Part shown: one piece after another, positions 3,381-34,189 of the stretch
Numbering within the stretch: position 1 is the stretch's first letter
Layout of the letters: every line of letters begins with the position of its first letter
From: an uncultured delta proteobacterium
GTDB lineage: Bacteria > Desulfobacterota > Syntrophia > Syntrophales > Smithellaceae
Direction of reading: 5' to 3'
Assembly (NCBI GenBank): GCA_963845095.1
Contig: CAWJQM010000006.1
Coordinates: forward strand, 2,786 to 66,785
DNA length: 64,000 nucleotides
The notes under the pieces: model-generated
What the model saw: the letters and a program-made list of their open reading frames with translations, nothing else
Told to the model about the DNA's origin: nothing
The model's database searches: none
Position numbers and translations under genes: made by a program

Positions 3381-6300
3381 ATGGCTGTTATGGGATATAA
3401 ACCGTGGAGAAATTATGTGATTACAACTCCATACAGAGCACCAAGAAAAAAGACCGATGGAGGTACTTATTATCATCCTGGCGTTGACTATGCAACACCG
3501 GACGGCACCAGGGGCAAGGAGATCCCGGCTTTGACTGACGGTAGAGTTGTTTTTAAAGGTCGGATGAATGGCTTTGGTAATTCCATAATTATTCAAACCC
3601 GGCTTGAAGATGGGACATACATTTTAACATCATATAATCATTTGCTTACGCCATCTCCCCTTAAAGTAGGAGATGAAGTTGATAAAGGCGATAGTGTTGG
3701 TAGGGTTGGCCATTCAGGAAGAAGTAGAGGTGATCATTTGGATTTGACTATTGTGGATAATGGAGACGTTAGCGAGATCGACGAATATGGGACAATAAAT
3801 CCGAATGATGCGAAAAATGATTTCATAAATGGGAAAAATTCTGGAAATACCATAAACCCAGATGATATTGATGGATATGATGCTACTGACTCTCCTGATC
3901 CCGGTGACCCTAGTGCTCCTGGTGATCCGAACAATCTCAATAATCCAGTAAACGATGCGGGTGGAAGTTTTGGTGATGGCATGGGTGTACCTCCGCCAAA
4001 TATTAATTTTGATCCTTTAGTCCTTGATCTGGACGGAGACGGAATTGAAACCGCGGCTTCTGCCGAAGGCGCTTTTTTCGATCATGACGGAAACGGTTTT
4101 GCCGAGCGAACAGGCTGGGTATCCGGCGATGAAGGCTTGCTGGTTCGTGATATAAACAGTGACGGTGTCATCAATAACGGCGGTGAGTTATTCGGCGATC
4201 AGACATTATTATCTAATGGCCAAAAGGCAGCCGGCAGCTTCCAGGCGCTGGCCGATCTGGACAGCAATAGTGATGGTAAGATTGATGCCAATGATTCGGC
4301 GTTTGCCCAGTTAAAAGTGTGGCAGGACAGCGATGGAGATGGATACTCAACGGAGGATGAATTAAAGACGCTCAGTGAACTGGGGATTACTGCCCTTAAC
4401 ACTGGTTACACCTCTACTAATATTTCTGATGGATTGGGTAACACGCAAATACAGTCGGGGACATATAAAAAATTAGACAACACCTCCGGCCAGATGGGCG
4501 GATTTCTTGTTCAGCGCGACACTGCCTATACTATACCAGAAGAATGGCTGGAAGTGCCGGCTGAAATCGCTGCACTGCCTGATATACAGGGTTATGGGAA
4601 TGTCTATGATTTGCAACAGGCAATGGTGCGAGACGTCAGTGGTGATTTACAGGATTTGGTAGAACTATTTATCGCACAAACGGATGCCGTGGTATTGACT
4701 ACTGCAGGCGGTACAACTCCAATCATTTCTTCAGCGGCAAATATCCGTAACAGCACCCTTGAACAAATCATTTTTAAGTGGACCGGATCAGAGGGCGTCG
4801 ATCCGGCCAGCCGCGGCGGTTTGTTTGATGCCCGGAAGCTCGCTGTTCTCGAAAAATTTCTGGGACAGGATTTTGTCGGAACAACCGGAGCAAACCCCAA
4901 TGCCAATGCCGTACCATTTTTGAATCAGGCTTATCACATCCTGTTTGATATGTTCTATGGTGAGCTCATGATGCAAACTCACCTAAAGGATGTTTTTGAT
5001 GAAATTACCTACAACTGGAATGGAAATACCCAAAGCGTTACAGGCGATTTAAGTGCCGCCGCCACTTACTTTCAGCAACTGATTGCAGCAAATTCAGTGG
5101 AAGGGAAATTTGCCCTCGCGGAATTTGTCCGGGCAATAGGCGGACTTGAGGGCGAAAATAACACCACATGGGATTATGAAAGTTTTAAAAATGACATGCT
5201 CAGTGGCGCCGACTCTGACCAGTGTTTTATTGTCAATTCATTCAACAAAAATTTGATTGTGGGCGATGCAGGGGGCGGCACATTAAGTGGTACTGCTAAT
5301 GATGATGCGATCGCTGGCGGTGATGCGAACGATACTGTATTGAGTATTGCAGGTAATGATGTCCTCTATGGCGGCAAAGGCAACGATGTTTTATACGCCG
5401 ACCAATCCGGCAGCGGCAGCAATATCTTGCTGGGCGGCGACGGTAACGACAGCCTGTTTGGATCTTACATGGGAAGCGACAAGCTTGACGGCGGTTCCGG
5501 AGATGATGTTTTGACGGCAAGCATGCATGGCCATAATATTCTTATCGGCGGAACCGGGAATGATACTCTTTATGGCAGGTATGGCAACGACTACCTCGAT
5601 GGCGGAGCAGGGATCGACTGCTTATCTGGTGGCGGAGGAAATGACGTTTTCATTTATGAACGCGGTTCGGACAATGACATCATACAGCGTGACATTGCTT
5701 ATTACTATTGGGGGGTGGCTAATCCGAACGGGATGGATACTGTTCAATTTGGGGCGGGATTGGTGGCGGATTCGTTTGATTATATTGGCAAGGGTCTAAA
5801 TGAGGGCGGCGATCTTATTTTAAGGATCAAGGATACGGGTGAGACGTTAACAATCAAGAATTGGTTTGCTCATGAGTATTATCAGGTTGACCGTTTCGCT
5901 TATGCGGATGGAACGGCGCTAAGTTCAGCAGATATTGACAGCCGGGCGGAAATATTACCCATTACTGGCACTGAAGGGGATGATAATCTTAATGGTGTAG
6001 TGGTAAATGGTCATGACAATGTTGTTTATGGTTTAGGGGGCAATGACACCCTGTACGGTGGTTCTGGGAATGACACCCTCGATGGTGGAACAGGCAATGA
6101 TGTTTTATATGCCGACCAATCCGGCAGCGGCAACAATATCTTGCTGGGCGGCGACGGTAACGACAGCCTGTTTGGATCTTACATGGGAAGCGACAAGCTT
6201 GACGGCGGTTCCGGAGATGATGTTTTGACCGCAAGCATGCATGGCCATAATATTCTTATCGGCGGAACCGGGAATGATACTATTTATGGCAGGTATGGAA

Positions 6301-9856: not shown

Positions 9857-12800
9857 AGTTGTATCCAAGATTCACACAGTCAGCATTGATATGGAATCCG
9901 TGAAAAGACGCTATTTTATTGAGGGCGAATTAAGCAGCGCCGAAGTGCTGCGAATTCTGAAGGATCACGGAATCCGTTCGCGGCTCAAGAAACTCAAGAC
10001 AATTAATGAAATGCTGAAATATCCGACACCGCTCATCATCATATCTAAAGACCTGGAGTTTCATGTTCTGATCGGTAAAAAAGAAGATACAATTTATTTT
10101 TTTGACTGCAGAGAAAAAAAGACGCGCCACATAACAGTGTGTGATTTTGGCCGGATCTGGGGTGGCGAAGCGATAGCCGTCTATCCCCGTTTTACTAACA
10201 CGGAATTATTCCTCAATATGAAATGGCTGTTTAAGGAATTCTTCAAGCACAGGCAGGTTTTTACGGCCATCATTACAGCTTCATTTTTTGTTCAAATTTT
10301 CGGTCTGGTCACACCGCTTTTTATTCAGGTTATCATTGATAAAGTTCTGGCCCATCAAGCCCTGACAACGCTGGAGGTTGTTGCCGGCGCTTTTCTGATT
10401 ATTTTATTTTTTGATACTATTATGAATCTCATGCGCAACTACTTACTCTATCATACGGCTAATAAGGTCGATGCCGGCCTGGGGGCAAAGGTTTACCGTC
10501 ATCTCCTCTCTTTGCCCTTCCGATATTTTGAAGTAAGAAAAGTGGGCAATATTATTGCGCGCGTCCGTGAATTGGAAAATCTACGGCAATTCATGACCAA
10601 TATCTCGCTGACCGTTTTACTCGATACTGTTTTTTCCGTCGTGTTTATTGTTATCATGGCGGTTTATAGCGGGTATCTGACATTGATCGTTCTTGGCTTT
10701 GTTCTGGTAATTGCCCTGATTTCTTCTGTCGCCACCCCCATGATTAAAACGCGTCTGGATGAGAAGTTTCAGAAAGGTGCCGCCAATTATTCATTCCTGG
10801 TGGAATCAATAACCGGCATTCAAACAGTAAAGTCGCTGGCCATTGAAGGCAAGATGATTAAAGAGTGGGAAAAAAGCTTGGGCGATTACATTCTATCGGC
10901 ATTCAAGTTGTCAAATCTGGGAAATGTTGCTGTAACATCATCGCAAACTCTCCAGAAAACAATGTCTCTGGCGGTGATTTACTTCGGTGTCAGCCTTGTG
11001 TTCAATAAAAGCATGAGTGTCGGCCAACTAATTGCTTTCCAGATGTTTGCTTCGCAACTGAGCGGTCCGATTCTTCGCCTTGTGCATATGTGGCAGGATT
11101 TCCAACAGGCGAAACTATCACTGGATAGAATAGGAGATATCATCAATACACCACCGGAGGTCGCGGGCGGAGCAATCACTGTAAAACAATTGAAGGGAGA
11201 AATTGTTGCCGATAATGTTTCCTTTCGCTATGCGCCGGAAACTCCACTGGTTCTGGACAGTGTCAGCTTTAAGATCGGCGCGGGAATGATGATTGGAATT
11301 GTTGGTCGCAGCGGATCGGGGAAAAGTACCATAGCCAAACTAATCCAGCGACTTTACCTGCCGGTGGAAGGCACAATATTGATAGACGGTGTGGATATTC
11401 GACACATGGATCCTTTATTTCTCCGCTACCGTACCGGTGTTGTTTTACAGGAATGTTTTCTTTTCAGCGGTACAATTCGCGACAATATCGCCATGGCCGC
11501 TCCGGATGCCGATATGGAGAGGATTATCCAGGTCACTCGCATTGCGGGCGCACATGATTTCATCTCGCAGATGCCGATGGGCTACGATACCTATGTGGAA
11601 GAAAGAGGCTCTTCTTTATCCGGTGGCCAGAAACAGAGAATCGCCATTGCCCGGGCCTTAATTATGAATCCCAATGTGCTGATATTTGATGAAGCCACTA
11701 GCGCTTTGGATTATGAATCGGAAAAAATCATCCATCAAAATTTAAATTTAATCTGTCAGGGGAGAACGGTTATTTTCATTGCCCATCGCCTTGCCATTAT
11801 GCGTGATTGTGATCTGGTTATTGTTGTTGATAAGGGGAAAATAGTCGAGACAGGCACTCATGCATCTCTGGTGCGGCAAAATGGCTTTTATGCCTATCTA
11901 TCTAAACAGCAGGAGGAAAATCAGTCTTCGATGAAGAATGATTACCATGATTTTAAACCGATAATTACTGAGATCGAGGAGCAGCCCGTTAATCCGTTGG
12001 GTACGTATTTTTTATGGACGATTATTGCTATTATGATGTTGGCATTGCTGGGTTTGATCTTTGTAAAAATTGATGTGGTTGTTACCGCACGCGGTAAAAT
12101 TATTCCCATAGGTGATGTTAAGGTTATCCAGCCGCTGGAAACAGGCATAATTACAAAAATTCATGTCAAAGAAGGTGATTACGTTACAAAAGGAGCAATC
12201 TTATTGGAAATTGATCCATCTGTGGATACGGCTGACCTGGAAGGCCGGGAAAGAAATCTTAAATATTTGCAATTATCTATGGCCAGAATCAAGGCCGTAT
12301 TGGCCGAAAATAATTATGTGCCCGAACGCCATGAAAATTCTCCGGAAGTAATTCAAGTGCAAACAGCGCACTATGAGGCATTGCAGCAAGTTTATAAATC
12401 CACACTAAACGAAAAGGAAAACGAATACCAAGAAACGCAATGTGCATTGAAAGCCATAACGGAAGAAATTGCAGCAACCAATAAACTTTTGACCATTATT
12501 CTCGAAGATGAAGGACGGTACAGAGAACTTTTGGCCATCGGCGCTGTGGCGGGTAACCTCTACCGAGACAAAATGAAGGAAAGAATGAACCTGGAGCGGG
12601 AAATAGACACCAAAACAGGTCAGGCTGAGCAATTAGCCGTGAAATTAAACAGAATTAAAGACGAAATGAAAACATTTAAAAGCAACTTCCGGGAAAAACT
12701 TCTCTCCGAATATGCCACGCATTTCCAAAGCAGAAACTCGCTGAAAGCGGAAGTCAGCAGCCTGAAATTTAAACAGGGAAAAAGGTTTATAGTAGCGCCA

Positions 12801-13277
12801 GTTAACGGCTATATTCATTTGCTGCCGGTAAAGACAGTCGGTGCTGTTGTTACTACTGCCCAGCCCGTTGTCGGTATTGTACCGGAAAACACCCCGCTGG
12901 AAGTTAATGCCATCGTGATGAATAAGGATATCGGCTATGTCAGGGAAGGGCAGCAGTGTGTGATCAAGGTAGATACTTTTGATTTTCAGAAGTACGGAAC
13001 AATCGCCGGCATCGTGGAGGTTGTTAATCCTTACAGCATGGAAGGTGGTAAAGAGAAGGATAAAAGTGAAAGCAGCGATGCAGAAAATAAATCCGGCGGG
13101 TATCCGGTGCGGTTAAAAATGCAAGCGGAAACATTAATAACGAAAAGCGGTGATGTGCATAAGATAAAGCCGGGAATGTCGGTCATGGCCGAAGTGAACG
13201 TGGGTAAAAGGAGAGTAATTGAGTTTTTCCTTTTCCCTATTATTCGTTATCTGGATGAGGGTCTGAAAGTAAGATGA
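9822..13277 (+). CDS. single-ORF fusion of a HlyB-like T1SS ABC exporter (C39-like domain + TMD + NBD) and a HlyD-family membrane fusion protein
   Basis: The N-terminal ~130 aa form a C39-like fold without an N-terminal catalytic Cys. Six TM helices follow. The NBD has Walker A GRSGSGKST, signature LSGGQKQRIAIARAL, Walker B LIFDEATSALD and H-loop IAHRL. After ...NGFYAYLSKQQEENQSS the frame continues into MKNDYHDFKP..., one TM helix, VVTARGKIIPIGDVKVIQPLETGIITKIHVKEGDYV, a long coiled coil and a HlyD C-terminus (KPGMSVMAEVNVGKRRVIEFFLFPI). Confidence 0.85.
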   Translation: MSTMETGLVSIEVVSKIHTVSIDMESVKRRYFIEGELSSAEVLRILKDHGIRSRLKKLKTINEMLKYPTPLIIISKDLEFHVLIGKKEDTIYFFDCREKKTRHITVCDFGRIWGGEAIAVYPRFTNTELFLNMKWLFKEFFKHRQVFTAIITASFFVQIFGLVTPLFIQVIIDKVLAHQALTTLEVVAGAFLIILFFDTIMNLMRNYLLYHTANKVDAGLGAKVYRHLLSLPFRYFEVRKVGNIIARVRELENLRQFMTNISLTVLLDTVFSVVFIVIMAVYSGYLTLIVLGFVLVIALISSVATPMIKTRLDEKFQKGAANYSFLVESITGIQTVKSLAIEGKMIKEWEKSLGDYILSAFKLSNLGNVAVTSSQTLQKTMSLAVIYFGVSLVFNKSMSVGQLIAFQMFASQLSGPILRLVHMWQDFQQAKLSLDRIGDIINTPPEVAGGAITVKQLKGEIVADNVSFRYAPETPLVLDSVSFKIGAGMMIGIVGRSGSGKSTIAKLIQRLYLPVEGTILIDGVDIRHMDPLFLRYRTGVVLQECFLFSGTIRDNIAMAAPDADMERIIQVTRIAGAHDFISQMPMGYDTYVEERGSSLSGGQKQRIAIARALIMNPNVLIFDEATSALDYESEKIIHQNLNLICQGRTVIFIAHRLAIMRDCDLVIVVDKGKIVETGTHASLVRQNGFYAYLSKQQEENQSSMKNDYHDFKPIITEIEEQPVNPLGTYFLWTIIAIMMLALLGLIFVKIDVVVTARGKIIPIGDVKVIQPLETGIITKIHVKEGDYVTKGAILLEIDPSVDTADLEGRERNLKYLQLSMARIKAVLAENNYVPERHENSPEVIQVQTAHYEALQQVYKSTLNEKENEYQETQCALKAITEEIAATNKLLTIILEDEGRYRELLAIGAVAGNLYRDKMKERMNLEREIDTKTGQAEQLAVKLNRIKDEMKTFKSNFREKLLSEYATHFQSRNSLKAEVSSLKFKQGKRFIVAPVNGYIHLLPVKTVGAVVTTAQPVVGIVPENTPLEVNAIVMNKDIGYVREGQQCVIKVDTFDFQKYGTIAGIVEVVNPYSMEGGKEKDKSESSDAENKSGGYPVRLKMQAETLITKSGDVHKIKPGMSVMAEVNVGKRRVIEFFLFPIIRYLDEGLKVR

Positions 13278-28396: not shown

Positions 28397-30267
28397 ATGA
28401 ACGGCAATACAGGGAAAATTGTCAATGTGGACCTGACGGCGGGGAAGGCAACAGTAGAGATTCTGCCGGAGGAATATTACCGGAAGTATATCGGCGGCAG
28501 CGGTCTGGCTGCAAAGCTCTTCTGGGAACGGGGTGACTTCAAAGCAGATCCCCTGTCCCCGGAGGCGATGCTCCTGTTCATGAACGGTCCTTTTGCGGGC
28601 TTGCGTTTGTCCGGGGCAAGCCGGAACAGCGTGGCCGGTTGTTCGCCGTTGACCGGCCACTGGGGTGATTCCTCCTGCGGCGGTTTTTTTGCCCCGGAGC
28701 TGCGGTATGCCGGTTTTGACGGTATGATCCTGACAGGGAAGGCGGCCCAGCCTTCCGTGCTCCTGATGGTGGACGACAAAGTCACTCTCGAAGATGGAAG
28801 CGCTTACTGGGGGAAGGGAACAGAGGAGGTTACCGAAGGCGCTGAAGGCGAAGTACGGCAAGGACTACCGGACGCTGGTTATCGGGCCGGCAGCGGAAAA
28901 TCTTGTCCGCTACACAATGATCTTAAACGACGGGCACCATGCGACGGGACGGGCCGGCTTCGGCGCCGTTATGGGGGCGAAGAACCTCAAGGCCATCGTG
29001 ATCAAGGCGACGAAAAAGGAGATGACGCTCGCCGATCCGGCAGCTTTTGAGGACCTCCGCAAGGACCTCAATCGTGCGGATCAAGGAAGCCCTGGCGTCG
29101 AATGTTCTGCATGAGAACGGGACGGCGGCGAATCTGATGGGTGGTGTTTACAGCGGTGACGTTCCGGTCAAGAACTGGACCTCCAATTTCTGGGAGGAAG
29201 CGGCTGATGCCCTGACCGGCAGCACGCTCACGGACACGTATCTTACCCGCAGCGGGCGCCTGCGCCTATTGCGGAATTGCCTGCAAGCGTTATGTGGAGG
29301 TAAAGGAGGGACCGTTTGCTATTCCCGACGGACCGGGTCCGGAATACGAAACAATCGTCGCCTTCGGGACGCTGATCGGATCGATCGATCTGGCGGCTAC
29401 GTGCAAGGCCGGCCGGGTCTGCAATGACCTGGGTCTGGATTCCATCTCGGCGGGCGGGACGATTGCCTGGGCGATGGAAGCCTTCGAGACGGGGCGATCT
29501 TACCCTGGATGATACGGGAGGGATCGAGCTTGAGTGGGGGGACATGGACACAGTGATTAACAAGGTTCTTCCGGCTGATTTCCCGGCGGGAGGGTAAACT
29601 GGGCGAGCTTCTGGCGGACGGCAGCGTGGCGGCGGCCAAGAAGATCGGCAAGGGGTTGGACTACACCGTTCACAGCAAGGGGATGGAGGCGCCGATGCAC
29701 GATCCCCGGGGTGGCGGCCACGGCATGGCCCTGACGTATGCAGTGAGCCCGCGCGGCGCCTGCCACGTGGCAGACCCGATGCTCTTCGTGGAGATGGGGT
29801 CCCGATATTATCCGGAGATCGGCTTTGATTTTATGCTGGAGCCAAAAACGGGGGAGAACAAGGCGGAGGCGGCGGCAATGTCAGTCGCCCTGGGGGCGAT
29901 CGAGAACAGTGCCTGTTTCTGCCAATTCGCCGATGCGGAGGTGACGATTCCGGATTGGCTCGCGCTGTTCAACACCGTGGCCGGTTATGGCTGGGAGGCC
30001 GGCGACATGATGGCGGCGGGCAAGCGGGTTTTTTTCCTCAAGCGCCTGATCAATCACCGTTATGGTCTGACGGCGACCGACGATGCTCTGACACCCCGCA
30101 TGCTGGAACCGGGGAAAGACGGTGAGGCGGAAGGGTCGCAAGTGGATCTGGAGCCAATGAAGGCGCGGTTCTACGAATTGATGGACATCGATCCGGTCTC
30201 GGGCATTCCGACTCCGGCAGCTATGGCGGCGCTGGATATGTCCGGCGAAGCCAATCAGATCCGTTAG
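28397..30267 (+). pseudogene. tungsten-type aldehyde:ferredoxin oxidoreductase (AOR family), about five frameshifts
   Basis: The AOR N-terminus is GKIVNVDLTAGKATVEILPEEYYRKYIGGSGLAAKLFW. The sense reading switches frame near 28825, 29065, 29250, 29490 and 29570. Conserved strings are recovered across frames: VIGPAAENLVRY..GRAGFGAVMGAKNLKAI, GACAYCGIACKRYVEVKEGP..GPEYET, LISRREGKLGELLADG, and HDPRGG at the C-terminus. Confidence 0.8.
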
Positions 30268-32230: not shown

Positions 32231-33112
32231 ATGAACGGGATCTTTTTGGATATATTTATTCATGGCCTGGCGTATGGGGGAATGATCGCCGTGTTGGCGG
32301 CAGGTTTCTCCTTAATCTTTGGTGTCGCGAAGATTGTCAATATGGCTCACACCTGCTTTTATATGATCGCCGCCTTCATCATTTTTATTATTTCCAGCCA
32401 ATTGGGATTCCCGCTCTGGATTTCCACGCTATTGGGCATTATCCTGACAAGCATCATTGCCATGATCTGCTACAAACTATTTTTTGACCGCATCAAACAA
32501 CACGAAACAGCGGTCATGATTGTATCCGTCGCTTTGGCTCTCCTGTCGCAGGAAATAATGCTGCTCATCTTTGGTGCGCATTATTATCCGTTTCCTTCGT
32601 TTATTTCCGGTTTTCTCGATATCGGTGTGGTCCGGATTTCCTATAACCATGTGTTTGCTTTTTCGGTTAGCATCATTGTCGTTGCCATACTCTTTTATCT
32701 TTTGGCAAAAACACGCCTGGGAAATGCCATCCGCTGCGTTGCCCAGGACCGGGAAGTTGCCAATCTGATGGGCATCAATGTCAGCAGAATCTCCATGATC
32801 ACGATGGTTATATCAGCCGTTTTGGCCGGGATTGCCGGTGCAGCAGTCGCGCCGATCTTCATGGTGCATGCCTTGATGTGGGTGCAACCCCTGGTGATGG
32901 TCCTTGCGGCTGTCGTCCTGGGAGGCCTGGGAAGCATCAAGGGGAGCATCATTGCCGCCTTTATTCTGGGCTTCGCGGAAAGCGCCGTCATTTTTCTCGT
33001 CCCGGACGGGAGTTTTCTGAAAGGAGCTGTCTCTCTCAGCGTGATGGTCCTGGTGCTGATCTTTAAACCGGAGGGGCTCTATGGCGTTGTTTTTGAGGAG
33101 GAGAGATTATAA
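32231..33112 (+). CDS. HAAT-family ABC transporter permease (LivH-like)
   Basis: Probable start at ATG 32231 (MNGIFLDIFIHGLAYGGMIAVLAAGFSLIFGVAKIVNMAHT). The ORF-track start at 32138 lies inside the hairpin region. Confidence 0.85.
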   Translation: MNGIFLDIFIHGLAYGGMIAVLAAGFSLIFGVAKIVNMAHTCFYMIAAFIIFIISSQLGFPLWISTLLGIILTSIIAMICYKLFFDRIKQHETAVMIVSVALALLSQEIMLLIFGAHYYPFPSFISGFLDIGVVRISYNHVFAFSVSIIVVAILFYLLAKTRLGNAIRCVAQDREVANLMGINVSRISMITMVISAVLAGIAGAAVAPIFMVHALMWVQPLVMVLAAVVLGGLGSIKGSIIAAFILGFAESAVIFLVPDGSFLKGAVSLSVMVLVLIFKPEGLYGVVFEEERL

Positions 33113-34189
33113 TGGGGCATTATCTGCGCTTATTCTATCAGATTATTAAAGGAGAACTCCTCGATATACCGGGAAGGGTCATTGCTTTTATCTTTGTCAT
33201 CGGGTTGCTGGTTCTGCCGCTTATCTCTGATCAGTCTTATCTCCTGAGGATTATGACGCTGGCGGCAATTTATGCCATCTATGCCGCCAGCTGGGATCTG
33301 CTGGCAGGATTTTCCGGGCAGGTCAATCTGGGACATGCCCTGTTTTTCGGCGTATCCGCATATGTCGGAGGAAAACTCAATCTTGTTTTCGGACTGCCTC
33401 CGTGGGTCACAATTCCTCTCGGCGGAATTTGTGCGGTTCTGGTCGGTATGGTTGCCGCCATACCGGCTCTGAGATTGCGCGGGTTTTATCTTGCTTTGGT
33501 CACTCTTGCCCTGCCGATTATTCTAACCGGCATTATTTTTATTTTTCCGAATTTTACAGGCGGGGAGCTGGGGCTTTATGGTGTGAAGAGATTATCAAGT
33601 TCCCGGATGCTTGATTATTACATAATTGTTATCGTTATGCTGATATCGGTCTTCATCATGTATAAGATTACCGATGCTGAAAGCAAATACCTGCGGACCG
33701 GGCTTAATTCTGCATGCCCTGCGTGAAGACGAAATCACCGCCCGGGCATCCGGCATCAATACCATTCGTTATAAGCTCATGGCCTTTGCCGTAAGCGGAT
33801 TTTTTTCCGGGATAGCCGGTGGTTTATATGTCCATTACATGAAAATCGCCGGTCCTTCCACGCTGGAACTGTTCTTTTCCTTTCAGGCGATTCTCTGGAC
33901 AATTTTCGGAGGCATGGGTACCATATACGGCGCCGTGGCGGGCGTTTATTTACTGTACCCGCTGATTGAATTCATCAGGATCGTTCCCCGGGGAGATGAC
34001 ATCCGGTTCATCGTGTTTTCCGTGGTATTGATCCTCGTGCTCCTCTTTATGCCTCAGGGCCTCACCACGTGGGTCCGGGATAAAATTGAAGTTATCTGTC
34101 CGCGCTGCAAGCTGATTAATGCAGCTTATCGGCACAATTGCCGCGCCTGCCGTGCCAATCTTCAGAGAGAAAAAATGGAAATGCAGTAA
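33112..34189 (+). pseudogene. HAAT-family ABC transporter permease (LivM-like) with C-terminal zinc-ribbon tail, one frameshift near 33700
   Basis: ORFs 33112-33726 and 33674-34189 join as ...KITDAESKYLRTG / LILHALREDEITARASGIN. GQVNLGHALFFGVSAY signature. The tail reads CPRCKLINAAYRHNCRAC. Confidence 0.8.

What the first reader, a model, noticed from the sequence alone, without database searches (positions are those of the whole stretch)
3381..13277. Dedicated type I secretion system whose cargo is an M23 peptidoglycan-peptidase / RTX chimera
Three adjacent genes form a complete T1SS unit.
- The cargo is a 1560-aa protein with no signal peptide.
- A TolC-like outer membrane factor follows it.
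- An HlyB/HlyD-type exporter comes last. Its N-terminal domain looks like the non-catalytic C39-like domain used by RTX exporters, because there is no early catalytic Cys.

The first ~130 residues of the cargo carry lysostaphin/LytM-type M23 motifs (HPGVD, YNHL, GHSGRSRGDHLDL). The rest is Ca-binding repeats.

That architecture predicts a secreted, Ca-folded cell-wall endopeptidase. It would be a candidate diffusible antibacterial effector or cell-wall/predation factor exported by T1SS. As far as I know, M23 effectors are usually discussed with Sec, T2SS or T6SS delivery, so the combination deserves attention.
Basis: partly seen in the sequence, partly recalled or inferred. Interest (0 to 1): 0.7.

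Follow-up and report, generated by a model that had tools for sequence, protein, structure and literature searches.

The report
Self-clipping secreted cell-wall peptidase toxin
A Smithella-like anaerobe encodes a type I-secreted calcium-binding protein that carries a cell-wall-cutting M23 peptidase and, next to it, a FrpC-type module predicted to snip that peptidase free once calcium binds. The protein appears to belong to an undescribed set of swappable cell-wall-degrading "warheads", each paired with a likely protective gene.

Summary
Window 3381-13277 encodes a leaderless 1560-aa M23/RTX protein, a TolC-like outer-membrane factor, and a HlyB exporter with a non-catalytic C39-like domain plus HlyD.

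- **Self-processing module.** Residues 212-383 of the cargo are a FrpC-type self-processing module (SPM). The match to PDB 6SJW has E 3e-47, and the model has TM 0.83. A canonical Asp211-Pro212 scissile bond sits at its start. The M23 domain is therefore a releasable "clip-and-link" passenger, not just the head of an RTX chimera.
- **Altered zinc site.** The M23 site reads H-x-D instead of H-x-H. This natural variant occurs in 18 of the 150 closest M23 representatives, but in none of the 11 M23-SPM relatives aligned here.
- **Probable frameshift artefacts.** The HlyB-HlyD "fusion" comes from one extra base relative to Smithella relatives. Four other genes in the window are also frameshifted, so assembly error is likely.

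Context adds a bigger point. Where the 120 closest SPM proteins have a recognisable passenger, it is a peptidoglycan hydrolase or binding domain in 28 of 32 cases. Homology to the window protein starts exactly at the Asp-Pro site. M23-SPM genes in four lineages are each preceded by the same exported beta-propeller family. GH108-SPM genes are preceded by an LprI lysozyme inhibitor. The best reading is a T1SS-delivered, self-releasing antibacterial effector with cognate immunity. It is a new variant of a known kind, and its function is untested.

The parts
769..2011 (+). u1: exported (signal peptide ...HSTEA|I) ~416-aa TolB-like beta-propeller protein and candidate immunity partner. It is read as two ORFs (769-1626 and 1613-2011) because of a frameshift in a T4 run at 1619-1622.
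   Evidence: Homologous to the intact 382-aa gene directly upstream of the M23-SPM gene in L035 (E 9e-28). The alignment runs across the frameshift. The family profile hits the TolB propeller (7mx5, E 5e-6). No Pfam family was found.
2111..3348 (+). u2: a paralogue of u1 with a signal peptide (probable start MKRINKL at 2162). It is also split by a frameshift (2111-2563 and 2548-3348).
   Evidence: u1 against u2 gives E 2e-7 to 3e-8 and is colinear across both junctions. u2 against L035_382 gives E 2e-13, and against L005_377 E 3e-7.
3381..8063 (+). Cargo gene: leaderless M23 - linker - SPM - conserved region - RTX repeats - C-terminal secretion region (1560 aa).
3471..3767 (+). M23 peptidase domain (aa 31-129). 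It carries H32-x3-D36, N86-H87 and H119-L-D121, where the second His of HxH is Asp (codon GAT).
   Evidence: Pfam E 5.9e-17. PDB sequence hits include 3slu and 6muk at about 1.5e-9. The AF2 model has pLDDT 85-93 over aa 40-120, and Foldseek matches lysostaphin, LytM and EnpA with TM(target) 0.62-0.66. The codons were read.
3768..4010 (+). Asp/Pro/Gly/Asn-rich linker (aa 130-210), predicted disordered.
   Evidence: pLDDT is below 50 for aa 150-204. Nothing in the relatives aligns here.
4011..4016 (+). Predicted scissile Asp211-Pro212 bond.
   Evidence: It aligns with FrpC Asp414-Pro415 in 6SJX. Homology of 48 of 120 SPM relatives to the window protein begins at residue 211 or 212.
4014..4529 (+). 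FrpC-type self-processing module (aa 212-383; Pfam PF26745 'SPM').
   Evidence: phmmer against 6sjw gives E 3e-47. Foldseek gives E 3e-18 and TM(target) 0.83. The W246/W314 pair, D273 and the EF-hand-like Asp residues are conserved. The FrpC D579 equivalent is Gly374.
4530..5300 (+). Conserved post-SPM region (aa 384-~640; ...LPDIQGYGNVYDL...IFKWTGSEGVDPASRG.FDARKLAVLEKF...). It is shared with SPM-RTX relatives, and the truncated 'stub' genes in other loci end inside it.
   Evidence: Stubs end at window-equivalent residues 402-418 or 486-500.
5301..7790 (+). RTX calcium-binding body. It contains a duplicated 298-nt block (5352-5649 and 6066-6363, 91% identical) and five 270-nt (90-aa) repeats (6299-7651).
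   Evidence: HemolysinCabind in 12 stretches, plus HCBP_related at aa 811-851. Repeats were found. The region matches CyaA, HlyA and serralysin RTX blocks.
7791..8063 (+). C-terminal ~90 aa, the presumed uncleaved T1SS secretion signal region.
   Evidence: This is inferred from its position after the last RTX block. Residues 1408-1527 of the protein align with CyaA RTX block V and its C-terminal cap. There is no consensus motif to test.
8519..9856 (+). TolC-like outer-membrane factor (445 aa).
   Evidence: Pfam OEP E 1.3e-17. It is 56% identical to the OEP gene in the same position in Smithella-like loci L030 and L031. The annotated start gives a weak signal peptide.
9822..11930 (+). HlyB-type ABC exporter with an N-terminal C39-like domain (aa 4-123, nt 9831-10190).
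   Evidence: TIGR01846 scores 806 bits, above its cut-off. The CLD aligns to 3ZUA without a catalytic Cys. It is 77-88% identical to ~700-aa HlyB proteins of Smithella and Syntrophales MAGs.
11922..11930 (+). Site of the one-base insertion that joins hlyB to hlyD in frame.
   Evidence: The window reads AAT CAG TCT TCG ATG. Removing the A restores AAT CGT CTT CGA TGA, which is N-R-L-R-stop: the C-terminus of 10 of the 13 closest HlyB proteins whose ends were inspected, two more ending in ...NRL. It also restores the ATGA overlap seen in L029.
11931..13277 (+). HlyD-type membrane fusion protein (aa 704-1151 of the ORF).
   Evidence: TIGR01843 scores 306 bits, above its cut-off. L029 has a separate 415-aa homologue.

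Best explanation
The locus is a type I secretion operon of a Smithella-like deltaproteobacterium. Its cargo is a FrpC-type 'clip-and-link' RTX protein carrying an N-terminal M23 peptidoglycan endopeptidase as the releasable passenger.

**Proposed mechanism.**
1. The unfolded 1560-aa protein is recognised through its C-terminal region and RTX body by the C39-like domain of HlyB. It is threaded C-terminus first through HlyB/HlyD/OMF. This step is inferred from the family.
2. Outside the cell, Ca2+ folds the RTX blocks and then the SPM. This is inferred from FrpC.
3. The folded SPM strains and cleaves the Asp211-Pro212 bond. That frees a ~211-residue M23 fragment whose C-terminal Asp is a reactive anhydride. 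The anhydride is either hydrolysed or acylates a nearby amine. This is inferred. The site and most SPM residues are shown to be conserved, but one FrpC-critical Asp is Gly here.
4. The released M23 domain attacks peptidoglycan cross-links of competing bacteria. This is inferred.
5. The exported beta-propeller proteins encoded immediately upstream (u1, u2) neutralise the peptidase in the producer or its kin. This is inferred from conserved gene pairing.

The protein is one member of a wider, apparently undescribed set of SPM-RTX proteins in anaerobic environmental bacteria. In that set the passenger is exchangeable among different peptidoglycan hydrolases, and each passenger type keeps its own upstream partner gene.
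For: **Architecture.** M23, SPM, RTX, OEP, HlyB with CLD, and HlyD are all supported.

**SPM.**
- E 3e-47 to 6SJW/6SJX, with Asp-Pro aligned to the FrpC scissile bond.
- The model matches at TM 0.83.
- Conserved in the window protein, by its alignment to FrpC: W246 and W314 (FrpC W451/W519), D273 (D478), and the EF-hand-like Asp residues D216, D218 and D220. The columns for W246, W314, D216, D218 and D220 are 93-99% conserved across the 114-sequence alignment, and the D273 column is Asp in 73%.

**Modularity.**
- Homology of 120 SPM relatives to the window protein starts at residue 211/212 in 48 cases and within 190-213 in 96.
- The closest SPM relatives (66-79% identical) carry other passengers.

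**Passenger census among the best 120 (family names).**
- M23: 6.
- GH108 and/or PG_binding_3: 9.
- Phage_lysozyme2 and/or SLT: 6.
- Glucosaminidase: 3.
- NlpC/P60: 1.
- Phage_lysozyme: 1.
- LysM: 2.
- DUF6973: 4.
- No recognised passenger of any other kind.

**Partner genes.**
- The u-family lies directly upstream of M23-SPM in the window, L002, L005 and L035/L036, with pairwise E values from 9e-28 to 2e-6. Those whose N-terminus is available (the window's u1 and u2, L005_377 and L035_382) all have signal peptides; the L002 copy is cut at the locus start.
- The LprI lysozyme inhibitor lies directly upstream of GH108-SPM in L005, L032 and L033.
- Of the 11 additional loci that had a same-strand ORF within 400 nt upstream, 8 showed a hydrophobic N-terminus in that ORF, and two of those have a lipobox-like Cys.

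**Same T1SS, other cargo.** In L030/L031 an OEP gene (56% identical to the window's) and a HlyB gene (86% identical) follow a different RTX cargo.

**Published basis.** The SPM mechanism is described in PMC7078468.
Against: - No activity was tested.
- The M23 site has Asp in place of the third Zn ligand (H119-L-D121). All 11 M23-SPM relatives aligned keep H-x-H.
- The FrpC D579 equivalent is Gly374, and FrpC D579A abolishes cleavage (PMC7078468). This is mitigated because 16 other Asp-Pro relatives among the 113 SPM homologues aligned, 8 of them among the 10 best hits, also have Gly.
- It is unexplained how a secreted hydrolase would cross a Gram-negative outer membrane.
- u1, u2 and hlyB/hlyD are frameshifted in the sequence as given. 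If those frameshifts are real, the locus could be decaying.
- The window has no warhead-SPM stubs of its own.
- L034 has a different protein upstream of its divergent M23.
- The immunity role of the beta-propeller family rests on synteny alone.
Confidence: 0.6

Rival explanations
1. This is an adhesion or anchoring device rather than a toxin. As proposed for FrpC and ApxIVA, the clipped N-terminal fragment would be covalently linked through its anhydride to a surface. The M23 domain, with its altered metal site, would serve mainly as a peptidoglycan- or peptide-binding module. The upstream exported protein would be its docking partner on the producer, like FrpD. This could hold Smithella cells to partner cells in syntrophic aggregates.
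For: - FrpD is encoded upstream of frpC and binds the FrpC N-terminal domain with a Kd of about 0.2 nM. An adhesion model has been proposed for FrpC and ApxIVA (PMC5233953, PMC7078468, PMC3034196).
- The window M23 has H-x-D instead of H-x-H.
- Non-catalytic LytM domains that act as binders or activators exist, for example EnvC and DipM among the fold matches.
Against: - Four of the five catalytic-site residues are intact. H-x-D with the other four residues intact recurs in 18 of the 150 closest M23 representatives. Degenerate LytM factors usually lose several of these residues.
- Passengers in relatives are bona fide lytic enzymes of several unrelated folds, and some are paired with a known lysozyme inhibitor family. 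That pattern fits toxin and immunity better than adhesion.
Confidence: 0.15
2. This is a decaying or silent locus. The frameshifts in both upstream genes, the hlyB-hlyD junction mutation and the Zn-ligand substitution would all be real, so the system would no longer function.
For: There are three frameshift-type lesions within 13 kb, plus a His-to-Asp change at a metal ligand that is found in none of the M23-SPM relatives.
Against: - The 4.7-kb cargo ORF, the OMF gene and both exporter halves are otherwise intact and highly conserved. HlyB is 85-88% identical to its relatives.
- Unrelated housekeeping genes elsewhere in the window are split as well: AFOR at 28397-29427 and a LivM-like permease at 33112-34189.
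- The u1 lesion is a one-base change in a T4 run. This points to indel errors in the assembly rather than selective decay.
- A HlyB-HlyD fusion would be topologically feasible, because both ends at the junction are cytoplasmic.
Confidence: 0.12
3. The protein has a self-directed or cooperative cell-wall role. The secreted M23 fragment would remodel the producer's own or its kin's envelope, for example in cell separation, aggregate formation or nanowire/partner contact, rather than kill competitors.
For: Many M23 peptidases are housekeeping endopeptidases; the NCBIfam hits to MepM, ShyA/C and Pgp3 are weak. Smithella lives in tight syntrophic consortia (my own background knowledge, not tested here).
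Against: - Housekeeping M23 enzymes are Sec-exported to the periplasm. Export across both membranes by a T1SS would put the enzyme on the wrong side of the producer's outer membrane.
- The polymorphic passengers, the paired inhibitor-like genes and the truncated stubs seen in relatives are hallmarks of conflict systems.
Confidence: 0.08

Closest known systems
FrpC/FrpA of Neisseria meningitidis and ApxIVA of Actinobacillus pleuropneumoniae ('clip-and-link' RTX proteins with a self-processing module; PDB 6SJW/6SJX; Pfam PF26745 SPM)
   Same: - The order of parts is the same: N-terminal passenger, Asp-Pro, SPM, conserved region, RTX repeats, with T1SS export.
- The SPM is about 52% identical to FrpC's, with the Trp pair, D478 and the EF-hand-like sites conserved.
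- An upstream gene encodes an exported protein, as with frpD before frpC (PMC3034196).
   Different: - The passenger is a recognisable enzyme (an M23 peptidoglycan peptidase). The FEMS review says the FrpC N-terminal part resembles no known protein.
- The FrpC D579 equivalent is Gly.
- The host is a free-living anaerobe, not an animal pathogen.
- The T1SS genes are adjacent to the cargo.
- The upstream partner is a beta-propeller unrelated to FrpD.
Secreted bacteriolytic M23 peptidases (lysostaphin, LytM, zoocin A, EnpA, LasA)
   Same: The fold is the same, and so are H-x3-D and both catalytic His residues. The presumed activity on peptidoglycan cross-links is also shared.
   Different: - From my own knowledge, those enzymes are Sec- or T2SS-exported with signal peptides and propeptides. 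This one is leaderless, and is delivered by a T1SS and released by SPM autoprocessing.
- The third Zn ligand is Asp rather than His.
RTX bacteriocins (for example the Rhizobium leguminosarum rhizobiocins/RzcA, Xylella XF2407 and XF2759)
   Same: They are T1SS-secreted RTX proteins with antibacterial activity and an unknown mechanism (PMC3034196). SPM-like segments occur in Rhizobiales genomes (L022-L026).
   Different: No M23 or other peptidoglycan-hydrolase passenger, and no SPM-dependent release, has been described for them in the papers I could search. I did not test the sequence relationship of the passengers.
Polymorphic toxin systems (CdiA-CT/CdiI, Rhs, T6SS peptidoglycan effectors Tae/Tge with periplasmic Tai/Tgi immunity)
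   Same: - There is a sharp boundary between a conserved delivery body and a variable toxin domain.
- An adjacent exported immunity-like gene co-varies with the toxin type.
- Truncated 'orphan' toxin modules occur in related loci.
   Different: - The variable domain is N-terminal, because the T1SS signal is C-terminal.
- The immunity-like gene lies upstream.
- Release is by Ca2+-triggered Asp-Pro autoprocessing.
- Delivery is by secretion into the medium rather than contact-dependent injection.
E. coli HlyBD-TolC haemolysin exporter
   Same: The ABC protein has a C39-like domain lacking the catalytic Cys, and there is a HlyD-type adaptor and a TolC-like OMF.
   Different: - The OMF is encoded in the operon, between the cargo and hlyB.
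- hlyB and hlyD are read as one ORF because of a one-base insertion.
- No HlyC-like acyltransferase was seen among the flanking genes scanned with Pfam, and no pore-forming domain was detected in the cargo.

Membership tests
FrpC-type self-processing module (Pfam PF26745 SPM) | Sequence and fold match to the solved SPM | tested here: met
   phmmer E 3e-47 to 6sjw over aa 212-383. Foldseek E 3e-18, TM(target) 0.83.
FrpC-type self-processing module (Pfam PF26745 SPM) | Asp-Pro scissile bond at the N-terminal edge of the module | tested here: met
   D211-P212 aligns with FrpC D414-P415. Pro is present in 112 of the 114 aligned SPM sequences and Asp in 59.
FrpC-type self-processing module (Pfam PF26745 SPM) | T-shaped Trp pair (W451/W519) and EF-hand-like Ca2+ sites | tested here: met
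   W246 and W314 are present. DLDGDG (216-221), DINSDGVINNGGE, DSNSDGKIDAND and DSDGDGYSTEDE align with the FrpC sites.
FrpC-type self-processing module (Pfam PF26745 SPM) | Structural Asp pair D478/D579 at the fifth Ca2+ site (D579A abolishes cleavage in FrpC) | tested here: not met
   D273 (the D478 equivalent) is present. The D579 equivalent is Gly374. Among the 59 aligned sequences with Asp-Pro (the window included), this column is G 17, E 17, N 16 and D 5 (PMC7078468).
FrpC-type self-processing module (Pfam PF26745 SPM) | Ca2+-dependent autocleavage and isopeptide cross-linking | not testable with these tools
   Needs biochemistry.
Peptidase family M23 | Pfam PF01551 above the gathering threshold, and the M23 fold | tested here: met
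   62.1 bits against a 28.7 cut-off. Foldseek matches lysostaphin, LytM and EnpA with TM(target) 0.62-0.66.
Peptidase family M23 | H-x3-D Zn-binding motif and catalytic His of the (N/A/G)-H motif | tested here: met
   H32, D36 and H87 are present.
Peptidase family M23 | H-x-H motif (catalytic His plus third Zn ligand) | tested here: not met
   The motif is H119-L-D121. The first His is present and the second is Asp (codon GAT). The same H-x-D state, with the other residues intact, occurs in 18 of the 150 closest M23 cluster representatives, so it may be a functional variant. All 11 M23-SPM relatives aligned have H-x-H.
Peptidase family M23 | Zn-dependent peptidoglycan endopeptidase activity | not testable with these tools
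   Needs a zymogram or sacculus digestion.
Type I secretion system (HlyB/HlyD/TolC type) | ABC exporter of the HlyB subfamily with a non-catalytic C39-like domain | tested here: met
   TIGR01846 scores 806 bits against 725.55. The CLD aligns to 3ZUA with Thr at the column of HlyB Tyr9. That this is the C39 catalytic-Cys column is from my own knowledge.
Type I secretion system (HlyB/HlyD/TolC type) | HlyD-family membrane fusion protein | tested here: met
   TIGR01843 scores 306 bits against 208.65 over aa 730-1149.
Type I secretion system (HlyB/HlyD/TolC type) | HlyB and HlyD as separate polypeptides | tested here: not met
   In the sequence as given they form a single 1151-aa ORF. One inserted base accounts for this. 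All 120 closest HlyB proteins listed are 639-707 aa with no HlyD part, and L029 has separate genes.
Type I secretion system (HlyB/HlyD/TolC type) | TolC-family outer-membrane factor | tested here: inconclusive
   Pfam OEP is above its cut-off (64.7 against 22). TIGR01844 and TIGR01845 are far below theirs. A syntenic OEP gene is present in relatives.
Type I secretion system (HlyB/HlyD/TolC type) | Cargo with RTX nonapeptide repeats and an uncleaved C-terminal signal | tested here: met
   HemolysinCabind E 1.7e-67, with matches to CyaA and HlyA RTX blocks. The signal itself has no testable consensus.
Polymorphic toxin / effector-immunity system | Variable toxin domain joined to a conserved body at a sharp boundary | tested here: met
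   Homology starts at residue 211/212 in 48 of 120 relatives and reaches into the M23 domain in only 4. The exhaustive search found no relative of the passenger (aa 1-211) listed at more than about 50% identity, the top-ranked hits being 42-45%. The SPM, by contrast, is up to 79% identical to relatives.
Polymorphic toxin / effector-immunity system | Adjacent cognate immunity gene that co-varies with the toxin type | tested here: inconclusive
   The u-family lies upstream of M23-SPM in 4 lineages, and LprI lies upstream of GH108-SPM in 3 loci. One divergent M23 locus (L034) has another partner. The sample is small and binding is untested.
Polymorphic toxin / effector-immunity system | Toxicity to bacteria, neutralised by the partner | not testable with these tools
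   Needs expression and competition assays.

The most novel reading that the evidence does not exclude
SPM-RTX proteins as a class would be a type I secretion-based polymorphic toxin system.
- The T1SS and RTX body form the conserved delivery vehicle.
- The SPM is the release device. It may also act as a covalent 'harpoon', with its Asp anhydride acylating amines on the target envelope, for example free DAP or Lys amines of peptidoglycan stem peptides.
- The N-terminal passenger is an exchangeable antibacterial warhead, here an M23 peptidase.
- The gene immediately upstream is its immunity gene.
- The truncated warhead-SPM ORFs in related loci are silent cassettes that can recombine into the expressed gene through the conserved SPM and post-SPM sequence.

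On this reading FrpC/FrpD of Neisseria would be a derived toxin-immunity-like pair. The Ser/Cys/Thr-Pro SPM variants, with their co-varying Asp, would use a second autoprocessing chemistry.
Probability: 0.3. Interest if true: 0.85.

Novelty: new variant of a known kind. Interest (0 to 1): 0.66.

Why it matters
The natural role of the Ca2+-triggered 'clip-and-link' module of FrpC-like RTX proteins has stayed unclear since it was described. The module is now mainly used as a protein-engineering tool (NeissLock).

In this locus and its relatives, the thing being clipped off is a recognisable peptidoglycan hydrolase. A candidate inhibitor gene sits directly upstream, and in GH108 loci that gene is a known lysozyme-inhibitor family. 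This gives a concrete, testable function: post-secretion release, and possibly covalent tethering, of antibacterial warheads delivered by type I secretion.

That would have three consequences:
- T1SS would join the secretion systems that carry polymorphic cell-wall-targeting effectors.
- It would suggest a reinterpretation of FrpC/FrpD.
- It would provide a naturally diverse panel of SPM variants and lytic domains for biotechnology.

For the window itself, the result also flags likely assembly indels. These make two genes look fused and two others look broken.

Tried and rejected
**Searches that found little or nothing**
- A word-indexed homologue search with the passenger alone (aa 1-211) found nothing. 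The exhaustive search found only generic M23 relatives, the top-ranked hits at 42-45% identity. The passenger therefore has no close relative in the databases.
With the L035 382-aa protein as query it found no relatives. The u-family/M23-SPM association therefore rests on four lineages.
- Rfam and tRNA scans of the window found nothing. The promoter and terminator scan was uninformative.
- Literature searches found no paper linking M23, or any peptidoglycan hydrolase, with RTX/T1SS or the SPM. The Micavibrio paper mentions both only separately.

**Ideas considered and dropped**
- *A genuine, novel HlyB-HlyD fusion.* All 120 closest HlyB proteins listed lack an HlyD part (639-707 aa), and one inserted base explains the fusion.
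- *A relic warhead-SPM stub upstream of the cargo.* The C-terminal tail of u1 weakly resembles the post-SPM LPDIQGYG segment, but tblastn gives E 0.06-1.5, which is not significant. There is no second SPM anywhere in the window.
- *A GNAT passenger in P0151.* The GNAT domain lies C-terminal to the SPM, so it is not a passenger.

**Not attempted**
- I did not predict a structure for the u-family. Only frameshifted window copies would have been accepted, and without a usable alignment.

Full report
**1. What is in the sequence**

The cargo is 3381-8063 (1560 aa), the outer-membrane factor is 8519-9856 (445 aa), and the exporter is 9822-13277 (1151 aa).

- The cargo has Peptidase_M23 at aa 31-129 (E 5.9e-17), HemolysinCabind (E 1.7e-67, 12 stretches) and HCBP_related.
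- The second protein matches Pfam OEP (E 1.3e-17).
- The third exceeds the curated cut-offs of both TIGR01846 (HlyB, 806 bits, aa 7-698) and TIGR01843 (HlyD, 306 bits, aa 730-1149).
- Its first 123 residues align with the C39-like domain of E. coli HlyB (3ZUA, E 1.3e-5). Thr sits at the column of HlyB Tyr9, which from my own knowledge is where genuine C39 peptidases have the catalytic Cys.

**2.

A search of solved structures shows that aa 212-383 are a FrpC-type self-processing module (SPM).
- The match to 6SJW/6SJX has E 3e-47, with Asp211-Pro212 aligned to the FrpC scissile bond Asp414-Pro415.
- An AlphaFold2 model of aa 1-400 shows two confident domains separated by a disordered linker (aa 150-204, pLDDT below 50).
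- Foldseek matches the C-terminal domain to the SPM (TM 0.83). It matches the N-terminal domain to lysostaphin, LytM and EnpA (TM 0.62-0.66).

According to PMC7078468, Ca2+ binding folds the SPM. Folding strains the Asp-Pro bond, which breaks to leave an Asp anhydride. The anhydride is then hydrolysed or forms an isopeptide bond with a nearby Lys.
- The window protein keeps the Trp pair (W246/W314), D273 (FrpC D478) and the EF-hand-like loops.
- It has Gly374 where FrpC has D579. FrpC D579A abolishes cleavage, while D579N does not.
- In an alignment of the window SPM with 113 SPM homologues, this column in the 59 Asp-Pro sequences is G 17, E 17, N 16 and D 5. Eight of the window's ten best hits carry Asp-Pro with Gly.

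I therefore treat self-cleavage as likely but unproven.

The full order of parts is:
- M23 domain (aa 31-129);
- linker (130-210);
- Asp-Pro;
- SPM (212-383);
- a conserved non-repeat region (384-~640);
- the RTX body, with a duplicated block and five 90-aa repeats;
- the C-terminal region.

**3. The M23 active site**

H32-x3-D36 and H87 are canonical, but the H-x-H motif reads H119-L-D121 (codons CAT TTG GAT).
- All 11 other M23-SPM proteins I aligned keep H-x-H.
- Among the 150 closest M23 cluster representatives from an exhaustive search of 1.84 billion proteins, 18 carry Asp at this position with the other four residues intact.

H-x-D is therefore a recurrent natural state and may still bind metal. 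Activity has to be tested.

**4. The exporter 'fusion' and the broken neighbours**

- All 120 closest HlyB homologues listed (77-88% identical, from Smithella and Syntrophales MAGs) are 639-707 aa and carry no HlyD part. Of the 13 whose C-termini were inspected, 10 end in ...QQE(E/D)(N/H)RLR.
- In Smithella locus L029, hlyB and hlyD are separate genes with an ATGA overlap.
- The window has one extra base. It reads AAT CAG TCT TCG ATG, and deleting the A restores N-R-L-R-stop and the overlap.
- The two upstream genes are each split by a frameshift. The u1 frameshift lies in a T4 run, and removing one T restores a reading that matches the intact homologue.
- Two unrelated genes elsewhere in the window, an aldehyde:ferredoxin oxidoreductase and a LivM-like permease, are split as well.

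The simplest explanation is indel errors in the assembly. A decaying locus is the alternative.

**5. Relatives and context**

*Modular boundary.* The passenger (aa 1-211) has no close relative anywhere: none was found through the word index, and the top-ranked hits of the exhaustive search are 42-45% identical, with none listed above about 50%. The SPM, in contrast, is up to 79% identical to a Smithella MAG (L001). Across the best 120 SPM proteins, similarity to the window protein begins at residue 211 or 212 in 48 cases and reaches into the M23 domain in only 4. This is a sharp modular boundary exactly at the cleavage site.

*Passengers in relatives.* The passengers recognised by Pfam among those 120 (names) are:
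- M23: 6;
- GH108 and/or PG_binding_3: 9;
- Phage_lysozyme2 and/or SLT: 6;
- glucosaminidase: 3;
- NlpC/P60: 1;
- phage lysozyme: 1;
- LysM: 2;
- DUF6973: 4.

So 28 of the 32 recognised passengers are peptidoglycan hydrolases or peptidoglycan-binding domains. The remaining 88 proteins carry no recognised passenger.

*M23-SPM proteins.* They occur in a Nitrospirota MAG (L005, more than 2360 aa with RTX repeats), a Syntrophorhabdaceae MAG (L002), metagenome contigs L035/L036, and in P0056 (983 aa with RTX repeats).

*Upstream partner genes.*
- In the window, L002, L005 and L035/36, the gene immediately upstream belongs to one family of ~380-416-aa proteins. The window's u1 and u2 are two copies of it.
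- The members whose N-terminus is available have Sec signal peptides; the L002 copy is cut at the locus start.
- Pairwise E values range from 9e-28 to 2e-6. The family profile weakly matches the TolB beta-propeller (E 5e-6).
- GH108-SPM genes in L005, L032 and L033 are each immediately preceded by an LprI lysozyme-inhibitor gene.
- Of the 11 additional SPM loci that had a same-strand ORF within 400 nt upstream, 8 showed a hydrophobic N-terminus in that ORF; two have a lipobox-like Cys. Two of these loci are from Pseudomonas.

*Truncated stubs.* Related loci also contain truncated 'warhead-SPM' ORFs. They end within the conserved post-SPM region and lie upstream of a full-length RTX gene (L002, L032, L034). 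This resembles, in mirror image, the orphan toxin modules of CDI and Rhs loci. The window itself has only one SPM.

*Same T1SS, other cargo.* OEP and HlyB genes closely related to the window's (56% and 86% identical) follow a different RTX cargo in L030/L031.

**6. Interpretation**

The best-supported reading (confidence about 0.6 for the functional part, and above 0.9 for the architecture) has three elements:
- A T1SS-exported RTX protein autoprocesses outside the cell in response to Ca2+.
- This releases an M23 peptidoglycan peptidase used against other bacteria.
- The upstream exported beta-propeller proteins act as cognate immunity.

What is shown is the domains, the cleavage-site conservation, the modular boundary and the conserved gene pairs. 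What is inferred is secretion, cleavage, muralytic activity, target range and immunity.

The main weaknesses are these:
- the H-x-D metal site;
- Gly374;
- the absence of any known route across a Gram-negative outer membrane;
- the small number of independent loci.

The rivals are:
- an adhesion or anchoring role like that proposed for FrpC/FrpD and ApxIVA (0.15);
- a decaying locus (0.12);
- a self-directed cell-wall role (0.08).

**7. Novelty**

Several pieces are already known:
- clip-and-link RTX proteins and the SPM (PMC7078468, PMC3034196);
- M23 bacteriolysins;
- HlyBD-TolC systems.

In the searchable literature I found no paper connecting the SPM, or RTX/T1SS cargo, with M23 or other peptidoglycan hydrolases, or with immunity genes. 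The library covers open-access papers only, so this is absence of evidence.

I classify the finding as a new variant of a known kind. It has a plausible extension, a T1SS-based polymorphic toxin system, that would be of considerably higher interest if confirmed.

Noticed in passing
Alignment of the window SPM with 113 SPM homologues (P0151-P0270), at columns equivalent to window cargo aa 211 and 374: The residue before the invariant Pro is Asp in 59 of the 114 sequences but Ser in 42, Cys in 6 and Thr in 2. Ser/Cys/Thr-Pro members almost always carry Asp at the FrpC-D579 column (47 of 50). Asp-Pro members mostly carry Gly, Glu or Asn there (50 of 59). This strong covariation suggests a second self-cleavage chemistry, for example an N-to-O/S acyl shift.
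   Followed up: partly
window 9822-13277, junction at 11922-11933: hlyB and hlyD are read as one ORF because of a single extra base. Removing it restores the conserved ...NRLR stop and the ATGA overlap seen in Smithella relatives.
   Followed up: yes
window 28397-29427 and 33112-34189 (the ORF at 29626-30267 may be a further AFOR piece but was not scanned): An aldehyde:ferredoxin oxidoreductase gene and a LivM-like branched-chain amino-acid permease gene are each split into consecutive ORFs that match successive parts of one Pfam model. This points to indel errors in the assembly, or to pseudogenes.
   Followed up: partly
window 1-4000: The region holding u1, u2 and the start of the cargo gene is 36% G+C, against about 43-54% in the rest of the window. 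This is consistent with a horizontally acquired or fast-evolving island.
   Followed up: no
window 8064-8518 and 8429-8560: A 455-nt spacer with only a junk-looking ORF separates the cargo from the OMF gene. In relatives L030/L031 a BrnT/BrnA toxin-antitoxin pair sits at this position. The OMF ORF starts with a weak signal peptide, and the better upstream in-frame sequence (KGKHILLVRYLLLIL...) has no standard start codon.
   Followed up: partly
L002 565-1992 and 7228-8880, with ParB-like genes at 2046-2984 and 8934-9872: Two different warhead-SPM stubs end with the same sequence, ...FDA(G/R)KPQSHYLSQSPQR-stop. Each is followed by a ParB-like gene. The repeated junction suggests a cassette or mobile-element structure.
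   Followed up: no
L034 945-8198: An M23-SPM stub (489 aa, with Thr-Pro instead of Asp-Pro) precedes a second passenger-SPM ORF (339 aa). That second ORF appears to continue, after a 130-nt break, into a 1252-aa RTX ORF beginning at the post-SPM motif MVRDTSG. It looks like a broken main gene with an upstream displaced warhead.
   Followed up: partly
L005 6950-8782; L032 7504-9266; L033 7136-8910: An LprI-family lysozyme inhibitor gene lies immediately upstream of a GH108 + PG_binding_3 + SPM gene of about 420-450 aa that lacks RTX repeats. This looks like an effector-immunity pair built on the same SPM scaffold.
   Followed up: partly
window 1844-2005 (C-terminal tail of u1): The tail ...ELPDIITLLPEVETLPDINGSGLCFNLY loosely resembles the post-SPM segment ...EWLEVPAEIAALPDIQGYGNVYDL of the cargo. 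It is absent from u-family homologues. The similarity is not significant (E 1.5), so a relic of an SPM stub is only a possibility.
   Followed up: yes
P0003, P0010, P0024, P0125, P0138 (exhaustive-search hits): The closest relatives of the passenger are leaderless M23 domains at the extreme N-terminus (His at about residue 31, as in the window protein) of large multi-domain proteins. Some (P0010, P0024, P0125) also carry SH3_3, glucosaminidase or pesticin-like lysozyme domains; for P0003 and P0138 only the M23 domain was recognised. The warhead may therefore derive from such lysins.
   Followed up: partly
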